Below, one piece after another: positions 7,818 to 8,425 of a stretch of DNA of 11,413 bases. The stretch is from the IMG/VR virus record IMGVR_UViG_2579779002_000004; one strand, written 5' to 3'. Both the position numbers and the translations under genes were made by a program. The stretch is from a virus. Taxonomy: Duplodnaviria > Heunggongvirae > Uroviricota > Caudoviricetes. The notes beneath the pieces were generated by a model, which was given only the letters and a program-made list of their open reading frames with translations, searched no databases and was not told where the DNA came from. Every line of letters starts with the position of its first letter. Position 1 is the stretch's first letter.

Positions 7818-8183
7818 TTACAGTCCGATGATGTCGTCCTCTCTGCCACTACCTCCGGACACCTCCGGCAGCGTCGGGTCCGGCATATCACTCGCCGCTT
7901 CACGAGCAGACTTTTGTCGATGGCATTCGGTACAGAGCGTCCAGAGATTCGTCTCCTCATTACCACCACCGAACTGAAGTGCAATTCGGTGATCGAGTTC
8001 ACTGTCACAGAGGTCAACCACACGACCACAGAGACGGCACTGCCCGGCGTCCCTGAGCCAGATATGACGCTTGAGGGAAACACGTGCACTGCCACTGACA
8101 CGACGCTGTTCACCCTTCAGAATATTCACCCGTCGGGTATTCAGTGTTTTGATTCTGCTCTGGAGTGTACGAAGCTCAGCCAT
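7818..8183 (-). CDS. HNH endonuclease (packaging-associated)
   Basis: 121-aa ORF carrying CRLCGRVVDLCDSELDHRIALQFGGGNEETNLWTLCTECHRQK, i.e. C..CG...ELDH...GG...N...LC..CH. GGGGA lies 8 nt upstream of the ATG. Positioned immediately upstream of the cos/terS region, as in HK97-type phages. Confidence 0.85.
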   Translation of the reverse strand: MAELRTLQSRIKTLNTRRVNILKGEQRRVSGSARVSLKRHIWLRDAGQCRLCGRVVDLCDSELDHRIALQFGGGNEETNLWTLCTECHRQKSAREAASDMPDPTLPEVSGGSGREDDIIGL

Positions 8184-8224
8184 GTAAAATCCCCGTCATA
8201 TGGCAATCAGTAAAGGAAATAAAT

Positions 8225-8425
8225 ATGTCATCGAAAAACCGTACCCGCAGAACCACAACCCGCAATATCCGTTTCCCCAATCACATGATTGAACAGATCA
8301 ACATCGCCCTTGAGCATAAAGGGTCCGGTAACTTTTCAGCGTGGGTTATTGAAGCCTGCAGGAGAAGGCTGGCAACAGATGCAACGCATCTGCGCCCGGC
8401 CAGCATGACAAATAACGAGAAATGA
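8225..8425 (+). CDS. Small ribbon-helix-helix (Arc/MetJ/CopG-like) DNA-binding protein
   Basis: The track ORF 8165-8425 is trimmed to the internal ATG at 8225, which has AAAGGAAAT 6-8 nt upstream; the 8165 start would overlap the HNH gene. The 66-aa product reads MSSKNRTRRTTTRNIRFPNHMIEQINIALEHKGSGNFSAWVIEACRRRL..., consistent with a beta-strand, helix, helix RHH fold. Confidence 0.6.
   Translation: MSSKNRTRRTTTRNIRFPNHMIEQINIALEHKGSGNFSAWVIEACRRRLATDATHLRPASMTNNEK

What the first reader, a model, noticed from the sequence alone, without database searches (positions are those of the whole stretch)
8165..8425. Orphan ribbon-helix-helix gene transcribed against the late operon, divergent from the HNH endonuclease gene
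A 66-aa protein with a clear RHH-type layout (RNIRFP strand, then two helices) is encoded on the plus strand, opposite to every flanking late gene. Its start is only 41 bp from the divergently oriented HNH start. There is no toxin-like partner downstream, so it is not an obvious toxin-antitoxin pair. It could be a repressor of the adjacent moron or of packaging-region transcription, or a solitary antitoxin-like regulator.
Basis: partly seen in the sequence, partly recalled or inferred. Interest (0 to 1): 0.45.

Follow-up and report, generated by a model that had tools for sequence, protein, structure and literature searches.

The report
YlcI/YnfO-family ribbon-helix-helix prophage gene
The ORF is a real, strongly conserved small gene of the catalogued but uncharacterised YlcI/YnfO (DUF3950) family, most likely a small ribbon-helix-helix (RHH) DNA-binding repressor, and it lies backwards at the edge of the DNA-packaging genes in many lambda-like phages, including phage lambda itself.

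Summary
A 66-aa ORF (ATG 8225, stop 8423-8425, + strand) lies 41 bp from the divergent HNH start and is antisense to all flanking late genes. The listed start, 8165, is only the longest-ORF GTG.

It is not a new gene. RefSeq annotates the identical sequence as "YlcI/YnfO family protein" (Pfam DUF3950, E = 4e-20; PHROG 949, function unknown).

What I add:
- **Selection.** The first 50 codons are under strong purifying selection (dN/dS about 0.04 against lambda's copy). The C-terminal tail is hypervariable.
- **Position.** The gene sits at the left edge of the packaging module, in antisense, beside two unrelated terminase systems. Phage lambda carries it at 48109-48303 (complement), unannotated in the reference records.
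- **Fold.** Remote-homology hits converge on Arc/CopG/HicB-type RHH domains. All structure searches returned nothing.
- **Relatives.** In PICI-like satellites and islands, homologues are divergently paired with an operon whose promoter carries three element-specific 13-bp repeats. This is a classic repressor layout.

An RHH repressor role is therefore likely. The antitoxin and TonB-moron-repressor readings are not supported. The operator in this phage remains unidentified.

The parts
8225..8425 (+). Coding sequence of the YlcI/YnfO-family (DUF3950) protein: 66 aa plus a TGA stop.
   Evidence: ORF list. Pfam PF13132 E = 4.2e-20. NCBIfam YlcI_YnfO_N. PHROG 949. RefSeq annotates the same sequence as WP_000095744.1.
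8225..8374 (+). Conserved 50-codon core, taken here to be the whole RHH domain.
   Evidence: Homology with lambda-type loci starts at the ATG and ends near codon 50. Window against lambda: Sd = 22, Nd = 6, dN/dS about 0.04.
8261..8278 (+). Residues 13-18 (RNIRFP), the putative DNA-reading beta-strand.
   Evidence: I15 and R16 are invariant, and F17 is nearly invariant, in alignments A1/A2. hhalign places this segment in register with NLRWP of Arc. The AlphaFold monomer does not model it as a strand.
8279..8320 (+). Helix A (residues 19-32).
   Evidence: AlphaFold2 secondary structure, mean pLDDT 72.
8333..8389 (+). Helix B (residues 37-55). It is preceded by the G-S-G-N-F-S turn and contains the near-invariant NFSAWV..AC motif.
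8375..8422 (+). Hypervariable C-terminal tail, at a mosaic junction.
   Evidence: Many unrelated tails follow an identical core in the homologues. Part of that variety in ENA contigs is sequencing-error frameshift of lambda control DNA.
8213..8217 (+). Shine-Dalgarno AAGGA, 7 nt before the ATG.
   Evidence: Read from the sequence.
8184..8224 (.). 41-bp divergent intergenic region between the HNH start and the RHH start. It holds a candidate -10 hexamer TAAAAT at 8186-8191. No good -35 is present.
   Evidence: Sequence. TAAAAT is conserved in L091. The consensus scan found only a weak + strand site at 8095-8123. The promoter is inferred, not shown.
8137..8147 (+). GTATTCAGTGT. This is the only 11-mer shared, in reverse complement, with the otherwise unrelated upstream region of lambda's copy (-22 to -12). 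It is a weak operator lead.
Evidence: A match this long arose in 7 of 500 shuffles.
7818..8183 (-). HNH endonuclease gene, the divergent neighbour and first gene of the HK97-type packaging module.
   Evidence: Pfam HNH. PHROG 589. The closest recognised upstream neighbour in 78 of the 80 closest viral contigs; in the other two nothing was recognised upstream or the contig ended.
7598..7726 (.). Context only. CAGTTAACAT repeats between TerS and HNH, probably a cos/TerS recognition region. Rejected as the RHH operator.
   Evidence: Present in HK97-type loci and absent from lambda-type loci.
8426..8556 (.). 131-bp convergent gap before the TonB_C lipoprotein gene (8557-8898, minus strand). No intrinsic terminator is predicted. 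It contains a 33-codon ORF (8422-8523) that overlaps the stop as ATGA.

Best explanation
The ORF is a functional gene of the YlcI/YnfO (DUF3950) family. Its 50-residue core most likely folds as a minimal Arc/CopG-like ribbon-helix-helix domain. Such domains dimerise and insert a two-stranded beta-sheet (here ...T-R-N-I-R-F-P...) into the DNA major groove.

The gene lies at the left boundary of the packaging module of lambdoid phages. It always points away from that module and against the Q-dependent late transcript. This is the position and orientation of lambda's bor.

I infer three things:
- It is transcribed from its own weak promoter in the prophage state.
- It acts as a sequence-specific repressor.
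- Like its relatives in satellites and islands, it controls its own promoter and a promoter at the module boundary.

What is shown: the gene is real, it is conserved, its position is fixed, and its sequence is RHH-like.

What is inferred: dimerisation, DNA binding, expression in the prophage state, and repression. The target in this phage is unknown.
For: **Family membership.** Pfam, NCBIfam and PHROG scores are above threshold, and the RefSeq annotation is identical.

**Selection.** dN/dS is about 0.04 over the core, with synonymous sites saturated. The core is intact in all 80 of the closest IMG/VR loci.

**Fixed position and antisense orientation.** This holds beside two unrelated packaging modules: HNH-cos-TerS, and cos-Nu1 including lambda 48109-48303 (complement).

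**RHH-like sequence.**
- The secondary structure fits.
- The only PDB profile hit is a CopG-family RHH protein, aligned in register.
- 13 of 26 family members hit the HicB-like PHROG (best E = 9e-7). Others hit Arc-like repressor PHROGs and the NCBIfam models Tn5252_Orf10 and BrnA.
- hhalign gives P = 9e-4 against 9kkd and 0.004 against Arc. No shuffle out of 60 reached these scores, and non-RHH controls gave P of 0.16 or more.

**Repressor layout in homologues.** In PICI/cf-PICI-like satellites, an island and an ICE-like element, the gene is divergent from the Icd-like/primase (or cargo) operon.
- Two element-specific 13-bp repeats (GGTG-N6-CAC) cover the spacer and -10 of a TTGACG-17/18-TAnnGT promoter.
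- A third repeat follows the TATAGT of the RHH gene's own promoter.
- The same repeat type goes with the same beta-strand residues even when the downstream cargo differs.

**Expression.** K-12 ylcI is transcribed; the ybcW-ylcI overlap was seen in at least 50% of RNA-seq samples (PMC12288877).
Against: - No operator was identified in the window or in lambda. The only shared motif is an 11-mer with p of about 0.014, found post hoc.
- The promoter is weak by consensus and no terminator is predicted.
- The database-wide PDB E-value is not significant (1.3), and a second profile gave no hit.
- The repeats in the satellites could be bound by another protein.
- The beta-strand residues of the lambdoid clade (T-R-N) differ from those of the satellite clade, so targets cannot be transferred between them.
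- There are no expression data for this prophage.
Confidence: 0.6

Rival explanations
1. Packaging accessory. The protein binds DNA near cos, or modulates the small terminase subunit (TerS), and so acts in genome packaging rather than in transcription.
For: - It is always adjacent to cos or the first packaging gene, beside two unrelated terminase types.
- In lambda-type phages the block from cosN through cosQ and the spacer to the RHH core travels as one conserved unit, even where Nu1 has diverged to 36% identity.
- Five diverged satellite proteins (48-86% identity) fuse this domain to the N-terminal HTH of a TerS that is 62% identical to the window's TerS.
Against: - The gene is antisense to the late transcript that makes the packaging proteins.
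- The satellite and island homologues sit beside replication or cargo operons, not beside cos.
- The TerS-associated repeats are absent from lambda-type loci that encode nearly the same protein.
Confidence: 0.15
2. Cross-talk between phage and satellite. The phage copy is a paralogue of the satellite gatekeeper repressor. It acts in trans on satellite operators, either silencing parasites or being sensed by them.
For: - One family spans lambdoid phages and PICI/cf-PICI-like satellites of the same hosts.
- The satellite copies have an operator-like layout.
- No cis target was found in the phage.
Against: - The predicted DNA-reading residues differ between the clades (TRN against TKG, QKK and others).
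- No satellite carrying a lambdoid-type strand or a matching repeat was found.
- The idea is purely inferential.
Confidence: 0.1
3. Solitary antitoxin, or the remnant of a toxin-antitoxin pair.
For: - Weak similarity to HicB-like and BrnA RHH antitoxin domains.
- A 33-codon ORF overlaps the stop codon as ATGA.
Against: - No toxin-family gene lies downstream in any context.
- The C-terminal tail is hypervariable.
- There is no PADLOC hit.
- The core is under strong purifying selection, which a decaying remnant would not show.
Confidence: 0.05
4. Dedicated repressor of the neighbouring TonB_C lipoprotein moron.
For: - The two genes are convergent neighbours in the window.
- A perfect palindrome at 8904-8920 overlaps the moron's predicted -10.
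Against: - 27 of the 80 closest loci keep the RHH gene and have Rz, not the TonB_C gene, as the nearest recognised downstream neighbour.
- Stx-phage and lambda-type contexts have other neighbours.
Confidence: 0.05
5. Conserved DNA with no protein function, for example a recombination linker at a module boundary.
For: - The similarity has sharp mosaic edges at the ATG and near codon 50.
- DNA within the lambda-type group is nearly identical.
Against: - Between the two lambdoid types, synonymous sites are saturated while the protein is 88% identical.
- The protein family extends to 36-50% identity in other genera with the motif retained.
Confidence: 0.03

Closest known systems
YlcI (DLP12 prophage) and YnfO (Qin prophage) of E. 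coli K-12; Pfam DUF3950 / NCBIfam NF041551 / PHROG 949
   Same: Same family, with scores above the curated thresholds and a core about 88% identical. Same position next to the terminase genes (nohD, nohA) and same antisense orientation.
   Different: Nothing essential. The C-terminal tail differs, and the neighbouring packaging module here is HK97-type (HNH/TerS) rather than lambda Nu1-type. The family has no assigned function (PMC11551758; PMC13612085).
P22 Arc and Mnt (immI region), minimal ribbon-helix-helix repressors
   Same: About 50-residue strand-helix-helix layout with an N-x-R-x-P strand motif in register. From memory: in P22, mnt is a repressor gene embedded in the late region and expressed in lysogens.
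   Different: No antirepressor gene or other partner is present here. Sequence similarity is marginal (pairwise P = 0.004 for Arc and 0.04 for Mnt). The operator is unknown.
CopG/RHH_1-type plasmid and mobile-element repressors (for example PDB 9kkd, 'Ribbon-helix-helix protein, CopG family')
   Same: The only PDB hit of the family profile, aligned in register across the strand and both helices. hhalign P = 9e-4.
   Different: The database-wide E-value is 1.3, which is not significant. No Pfam RHH model is matched.
Lambda bor-type 'moron' genes between the lysis cassette and cos
   Same: Same genomic slot (between Rz and cos) and same antisense orientation relative to the late operon. Independent expression in the lysogen is plausible.
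   Different: bor encodes an outer-membrane lipoprotein that acts on the host. This gene encodes a putative DNA-binding protein and is far more widely conserved at this position.
Master repressors of phage satellites (SaPI Stl; P4-type immunity), as the functional analogue for the satellite homologues
   Same: In satellite homologues the gene is divergent from the replication operon, with repeats over both promoters.
   Different: No sequence relation to Stl. Binding has not been shown. The window's phage copy has no such divergent operon with recognisable repeats.

Membership tests
YlcI/YnfO (DUF3950, PF13132 / NF041551) | HMM score above the curated cut-off. | tested here: met
   PF13132: 71.8 bits against 25. 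NF041551: 35.3 bits against 30. PHROG 949: E = 2.4e-33.
YlcI/YnfO (DUF3950, PF13132 / NF041551) | Small protein (about 50-80 aa) with a conserved N-terminal core ...IRFP...NFSAWVxxAC. | tested here: met
   Alignments A1 and A2. R16, I25, F37, V41 and C45 are invariant in both; I15 and W40 are invariant in one and at least 90% conserved in the other.
YlcI/YnfO (DUF3950, PF13132 / NF041551) | Encoded in lambdoid prophages next to the terminase genes. | tested here: met
Ribbon-helix-helix superfamily (Arc/MetJ/CopG) | Strand-helix-helix secondary structure in about 45-50 residues. | tested here: inconclusive
   The AlphaFold monomer gives helices at 19-32 and 37-55. It models the NIRFP segment as coil and places a short helix at 8-13. 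Mean pLDDT is 72. The strand of an RHH domain forms only in the dimer, which could not be modelled here.
Ribbon-helix-helix superfamily (Arc/MetJ/CopG) | Significant sequence or profile similarity to proteins with a solved RHH fold. | tested here: inconclusive
   PDB-wide E = 1.3, with a CopG-family protein as the single hit. A second profile gave no hit. Pairwise hhalign gave P = 9e-4 (9kkd) and 0.004 (Arc), reached by 0 of 60 shuffles. Family members hit the HicB-like PHROG at 9e-7 and Arc-like PHROGs at about 1e-3.
Ribbon-helix-helix superfamily (Arc/MetJ/CopG) | Structural match to RHH folds. | tested here: not met
Ribbon-helix-helix superfamily (Arc/MetJ/CopG) | Homodimerisation and sequence-specific DNA binding through the beta-sheet. 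| not testable with these tools
   Needs a multimer prediction or an experiment.
Type II toxin-antitoxin RHH antitoxin (HicB/BrnA/RelB-like) | Co-operonic toxin gene. | tested here: not met
   None in the window, nor in the lambda, Stx-phage, Qin-type or IMG/VR contexts.
Type II toxin-antitoxin RHH antitoxin (HicB/BrnA/RelB-like) | Conserved toxin-binding region outside the RHH domain. | tested here: not met
   The tail after residue 50 is hypervariable.
P22 immI-type Arc/Mnt module | Adjacent antirepressor (ant) gene controlled by the RHH repressor. | tested here: not met
   No such gene in the window. The neighbours are HNH and the TonB_C lipoprotein.
Divergent 'gatekeeper' repressor module of PICI-like satellites and islands (described here from homologues) | Divergent operon with three element-specific GGTG-N6-CAC repeats over both promoters, next to an invariant CACGTCAA(G/C). 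| tested here: not met
   Present in the 18 satellite/island loci aligned; the automated extraction mis-anchored three of them. The same repeats are also seen in L175 and L176. In window 7900-8600 there is a single GTG-N6-CAC (8084) and no repeat set.

The most novel reading that the evidence does not exclude
YlcI/YnfO proteins are a single family of module-boundary RHH repressors shared by lambdoid phages and by the PICI/cf-PICI-like satellites that exploit them.

On this reading the satellite copies are the missing master repressors of the Icd-primase operon. The phage copy, including the unannotated one 199 bp from lambda's cos, is expressed in the lysogen. It acts in the phage-satellite conflict or on cos-proximal DNA. 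The natural fusions to a TerS DNA-binding domain hint at the second possibility.
Probability: 0.15. Interest if true: 0.75.

Novelty: new member of a known kind. Interest (0 to 1): 0.4.

Why it matters
The gene itself is already catalogued, so the window adds no new entity. The family, however, is one of the most widespread lambdoid-phage genes still lacking a function.

- The region matches 1630 of 5426 complete E. coli genomes, and 399 of them carry at least 80% of it.
- A copy lies 199 bp from cos in phage lambda and is missing from the reference annotation.
- It is strongly constrained and always sits in the same odd antisense position.

Assigning it to the RHH repressor class gives concrete, cheap experiments in lambda. 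So does linking it to an operator-bearing module in Gram-negative phage satellites. It also offers a candidate for the unidentified repressor of PICI/cf-PICI replication operons.

Tried and rejected
**Structure and sequence searches that gave nothing**
- The afdb50 library was not available.
- phmmer against PDB gave only a spurious ribosomal protein.
- Pfam scans of all family members gave no RHH model.
- P0219's N-terminus at first looked like an independent RHH swapped into the fusion. Pfam shows it is a divergent DUF3950, so I do not count it.

**Operator candidates**
- CAGTTAACAT repeats at 7598-7726: rejected, because they track the HK97-type TerS module.
- Palindrome 8904-8920: probably belongs to the optional TonB_C moron; not tested directly.
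- A GTG-N6-CAC repeat set like that of the satellites: absent from the window and from lambda.
- Inverted repeat I1 (8134-8158 / 8247-8271, 76% complementary) and the 11-mer shared with lambda: kept only as weak leads.

**RNA and defence libraries**
- Rfam gave no hit for the conserved leader hairpin upstream of the satellite Icd-like genes.
- PADLOC gave no defence-system hit.

**Literature**
- "orf-64" of lambda is a different gene (lambdap73, between Q and S). Its microarray and CRISPRi data do not apply here.
- The lambda ribosome-profiling paper is not held.
- The ylcI "mutations" in two evolution studies carry no functional information.

**Database artefacts**
Many apparent homologues in unrelated genera, and many ENA proteins with odd tails, are lambda control DNA. 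This includes error-ridden 3.5-kb nanopore control contigs.
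Full report
**1. The observation**

The window is a reverse-oriented piece of an E. coli lambdoid prophage with HK97-type head and packaging genes. The following genes are all on the minus strand:

| Gene | Coordinates |
|---|---|
| portal | 1729-3093 |
| protease-capsid | 3305-5242 |
| TerL | 5306-6967 |
| TerS | 6964-7527 |
| HNH endonuclease | 7818-8183 |
| TonB_C-domain lipoprotein | 8557-8898 |
| Rz | 9222-9773 |

An IS3-family element follows at about 10172-11385.

The reported ORF is real. The 8165 coordinate is the longest-ORF GTG. 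The biological start is ATG 8225: every homologue begins MS(S/T)KN there, similarity to lambda-type loci starts exactly at that ATG, and an AAGGA Shine-Dalgarno lies at 8213-8217. The product is 66 aa. The gap to the divergent HNH start is 41 bp, as stated. Downstream there is a 131-bp gap and then the convergent TonB_C gene. The only + strand frame there is a 33-codon ORF that overlaps the stop as ATGA.

**2. Identity**

The protein scores well above threshold for Pfam DUF3950 (71.8 bits, cut-off 25), for NCBIfam YlcI_YnfO_N (35.3 bits, cut-off 30) and for PHROG 949, "unknown function" (E = 2e-33).

The region 7500-9100 is 100% identical to E. coli strain 102651. RefSeq annotates the gene there as "YlcI/YnfO family protein". 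Of 5426 complete E. coli genomes, 1630 match part of the region and 399 match at least 80% of it.

The family is narrow. It has only 101 clusters at 50% identity among 1.8 billion representatives, essentially Enterobacterales and Pasteurellaceae.

The literature I could search treats YlcI/YnfO as uncharacterised (PMC11551758). One 2026 paper lists it as a cf-PICI accessory gene without a function (PMC13612085).

**3. It is a constrained protein-coding gene**

Between the window and lambda's copy, the 50-codon core differs at 22 synonymous and 6 non-synonymous positions. This gives dS of about 1.5 (saturated), dN of about 0.054 and dN/dS of about 0.04. Comparisons with a Stx-phage copy are similar.

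Similarity begins at the ATG and stops near codon 50. After that point the family carries many unrelated C-terminal tails. Part of that variety is artefact, because many ENA proteins come from error-laden nanopore reads of lambda control DNA. The core is intact in all 80 of the closest IMG/VR loci.

**4. Conserved position and orientation**

In every phage record the match is on the strand opposite to the late genes. Two unrelated packaging modules flank it:
- HNH-cos-TerS: the window, Stx phages WGPS8 and 1717, and JLK-2012.
- cos-Nu1-A: lambda, 434, HK629, DLP12-type, Qin-type and PhiR42_1.

Phage lambda itself encodes a 64-aa copy at 48109-48303 (complement), 199 bp from the right cohesive end. 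Neither NC_001416 nor J02459 annotates it. Lambda's named "orf-64" is a different gene, lambdap73 between Q and S.

Downstream neighbours vary. Among the 80 closest viral contigs they are the TonB_C gene (47), Rz directly (27), or KilA-N and others. The recognised upstream neighbour is HNH in 78 of the 80; in the other two nothing was recognised upstream or the contig ended.

The gene therefore travels with the left edge of the packaging module and not with the TonB_C moron. It occupies the same slot and orientation as lambda bor.

In K-12, ylcI is on the minus strand. Its transcript overlaps that of ybcW in at least half of the RNA-seq samples analysed (PMC12288877). At least one family member is therefore transcribed in a resident prophage.

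**5. Is it ribbon-helix-helix?**

*Positive evidence*
- AlphaFold2 (21-sequence alignment, mean pLDDT 72) gives helices at 19-32 and 37-55 after the NIRFP segment.
- The family profile's only PDB hit at E up to 10 is a "Ribbon-helix-helix protein, CopG family" (9kkd). It aligns in register through the strand and both helices, but E is 1.3.
- 13 of 26 diverse members hit the HicB-like PHROG (best E = 9e-7). Others hit three "Arc-like repressor" PHROGs, the NCBIfam relaxosome-accessory model Tn5252_Orf10, and BrnA.
- Pairwise hhalign gives P = 9e-4 (9kkd fragment), 0.004 (Arc, with N-x-R-x-P in register), 0.01 (ParG) and 0.04 (Mnt). No shuffle out of 60 reached the 9kkd or Arc scores. Four non-RHH controls gave P of 0.16 or more.
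- E. coli satellites carry, at the homologous position, a protein with the same N-terminus and a more typical CopG-like sequence, also named YlcI/YnfO by PGAP.

*Negative evidence*
- A second profile finds no PDB hit.
- No Pfam RHH model is matched.

I rate the RHH assignment likely (about 0.8) but not proven.

**6. What the homologues show**

A second clade (MATG.KNNKS..KGIRFPHELIEEI...NFSAWV(I/L)DAC) lies in PICI/cf-PICI-like satellites carrying int, alpA, an Icd-like gene and a primase. These occur in Serratia, Xenorhabdus, Klebsiella, Enterobacter, Pectobacterium, Pantoea, Gilliamella, Pasteurella and E. coli.

In every one the gene is the lone antisense gene. It is convergent with the alpA unit and divergent from the Icd-like-to-primase operon. 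The 150-200 bp between them has a fixed architecture:
- **O1 and O2.** Repeat O1, about 9 nt, then repeat O2 abutting an invariant CACGTCAA(G/C). On the other strand this reads as a TTGACG -35, followed 17-18 nt later by TAnnGT. O2 therefore fills the spacer, and O1 covers the -10 and the transcription start.
- **O3.** About 23 T-rich nt follow, then TATAGT and a third repeat, O3, ahead of the RHH gene.
- **Repeat sequence.** The repeats follow GGTG-N6-CAC(C). The central six bases are specific to each element and are shared by the copies within it: O1 and O2 differ at 0-3 of 13 positions.
- **Link to the protein.** Elements with the strand STTKG carry GTGCACA(A/T)ACAC whether the downstream cargo is a primase satellite (L002, L070), a CcdAB island (L049) or an ICE-like element (L067). 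Strands ending K-K or K-H go with C-rich cores.

This is the layout of a divergent autoregulated repressor, and the repeats track the RHH gene rather than the replicase. Binding has not been shown. Another protein could recognise the repeats.

**7. Back to the window**

No equivalent repeat set exists near the gene. There is one GTG-N6-CAC at 8084 and nothing in lambda.

They are absent from lambda-type loci whose protein is about 88% identical with an identical strand. They belong with TerS/cos. The 8904-8920 palindrome overlaps the promoter-like site of the optional TonB_C gene.

The only sequence shared between the two unrelated upstream regions is the 11-mer GTATTCAGTGT. It lies at 8137-8147 in the window and, reverse-complemented, at -22 to -12 in lambda. 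A match this long arose in 7 of 500 shuffles, and the test was post hoc.

The promoter is not obvious. TAAAAT at 8186-8191 is conserved in WGPS8 but lacks a -35. The consensus scan gives only a 9-of-12 site at 8095-8123 and no terminator.

**8. Mechanism and rivals**

*Most likely (0.6).* The product is a minimal RHH repressor. It is expressed at a low level against the late operon and guards the boundary of the packaging module. Its target is unknown.

*Rivals*
- **Packaging accessory (0.15).** Supported by the invariable adjacency to cos, by the lambda-type block from cosN to the RHH core that stays conserved where Nu1 has diverged to 36%, and by five diverged natural fusions of this domain to a TerS N-terminal HTH in satellites. 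Weakened by the antisense orientation and by satellite copies that sit beside replication operons.
- **Phage-satellite cross-talk (0.1).** Purely inferential.
- **Antitoxin (0.05).** No toxin gene in any context.
- **TonB_C moron repressor (0.05).** The RHH gene persists without the moron.
- **Non-coding linker (0.03).** Contradicted by dN/dS.

**9. Novelty and verdict**

The gene is already catalogued as a named DUF family, and an identical RefSeq protein exists. The window itself is ordinary. The inference that the family belongs to the RHH repressor class is new for an uncharacterised family but places it in a very well-known kind.

The more interesting by-products are these:
- Lambda's own copy is unannotated.
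- Position and orientation are conserved across two terminase types.
- The satellite relatives carry an operator-bearing module.
- RHH-TerS(HTH) fusions exist.

Interest is 0.4.

Noticed in passing
L087 3110-3304 (= lambda NC_001416 48109-48303, complement): Phage lambda encodes a 64-aa YlcI/YnfO-family ORF 199 bp from its right cohesive end. Neither NC_001416 nor J02459 annotates it. The lambda gene called 'orf-64' in the literature is a different gene (lambdap73, between Q and S).
   Followed up: yes
window 7598-7726: Four to five copies of CAGTTAACAT in both orientations lie between TerS and HNH, including the perfect palindrome CAGTTAACATGTTAACTG at 7708-7725. They recur in Stx phage WGPS8 (L091) but not in lambda-type loci. 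They probably form the cos/TerS recognition region of the HK97-type module.
   Followed up: partly
window 8557-8898 (minus strand) and 8904-8920: The 113-aa lipoprotein with a TonB C-terminal domain is an optional moron: 27 of the 80 closest loci have Rz instead as the nearest recognised downstream neighbour. PHROG 1267 labels it 'Rz-like spanin', which looks like a mislabel. The perfect palindrome AGAATAAG-T-CTTATTCT overlaps its predicted -10 (TAGAAT). By eye it resembles a Fur box, which would suit an iron-regulated TonB-like gene.
   Followed up: partly
window 8422-8523 (+): A 33-codon ORF (MNVRLQEQVPTVLQQYFIFISDRTRLTLPGCTE) starts with an ATG that overlaps the RHH stop codon (ATGA). I could not assess its conservation, because the close relatives are nearly identical and the distant ones lack the region.
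   Followed up: no
window 10172-11385 (ALIL pseudoknot at 10453-10569): An IS3-family element (orfA/orfB with the Rfam ALIL frameshift pseudoknot, 121 bits) lies upstream of Rz in the lysis region. The otherwise matching prophage of strain TUM14664 (L001) has no IS there.
   Followed up: partly
window 1137-1516: The 353-aa ORF next to the portal gene (671-1732, minus strand) contains 2.3 tandem copies of a 162-bp unit (92% matches), which gives repeated 54-aa segments. RefSeq annotates this ORF and the portal ORF together as one frameshifted 'portal protein' in L001.
   Followed up: partly
L074 5824-6000; also L002, L049-L054, L056, L060, L063, L065, L067, L070, L071, L077, L080, L086, L089, L175, L176: Satellite and island homologues share a divergent-promoter module: three element-specific GGTG-N6-CAC repeats, an invariant CACGTCAA(G/C), and TATAGT. 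The module sits between the RHH gene and an Icd-like/primase or cargo operon. The repeat type follows the RHH strand residues, not the cargo.
   Followed up: yes
L065 5828-5880 and equivalents; 522 E. coli genomes: A conserved hairpin leader (GCCCGG...CCGGGC within GTTGTGGTNAGAGGCCCGGTTAGTGTT..GCACTGCCGGGCTTCG) precedes Icd-like genes. It matches no Rfam family at gathering score, or at E up to 1 in L074. P4/P1-type C4/CI immunity RNAs are the obvious comparison, but they were not detected.
   Followed up: partly
L002 4714-5103 (P0191); P0217-P0220; L174 8001-8429: Five diverged proteins (48-86% identity) fuse the DUF3950 domain to the N-terminal HTH of a terminase small subunit. That HTH is 62% identical to the window's TerS over 50 aa. 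The fusions occupy the usual RHH slot in satellites.
   Followed up: partly
L174 5330-11380: The satellite carrying the fusion P0219 lies between a prophage's HNH/TerS genes and its tape-measure and tail genes. It looks like a helper-embedded PICI of the kind described in PMC10111431.
   Followed up: no
L089 4435-5109 (minus strand) against 4853-5032 (+): In Pasteurella 'phage' Pmp7, a 10.7-kb cf-PICI-like element, the annotated 224-aa 'transcriptional repressor' is a low-complexity ORF. It lies opposite the real 59-aa DUF3950 ORF and is probably a mis-call.
   Followed up: partly
L009-L036, L039, L041-L043, L045, L057, L068; proteins P0027-P0120: Lambda DNA contaminates assemblies labelled as many unrelated genera. 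It appears as whole 48.5-kb genomes and as the roughly 3.5-kb nanopore control amplicon. It generates dozens of frameshifted 'homologues' in protein databases, one of them labelled Staphylococcus aureus.
   Followed up: partly
L087, minus-strand read, about 37-51 nt from the right end (lambda about 48452-48466): The palindrome TGATAATGATTATCA lies just inside cosQ (GGGTCCT), between cos and the YlcI-like ORF. It resembles a Fur box. I know of no function assigned to it.
   Followed up: no
L092 3501-4202; L007: In Qin-type phages the YnfO gene is followed on the same strand by a YbcV/YdfO-family gene. Some contexts therefore do have a co-oriented downstream neighbour. The window does not.
   Followed up: no
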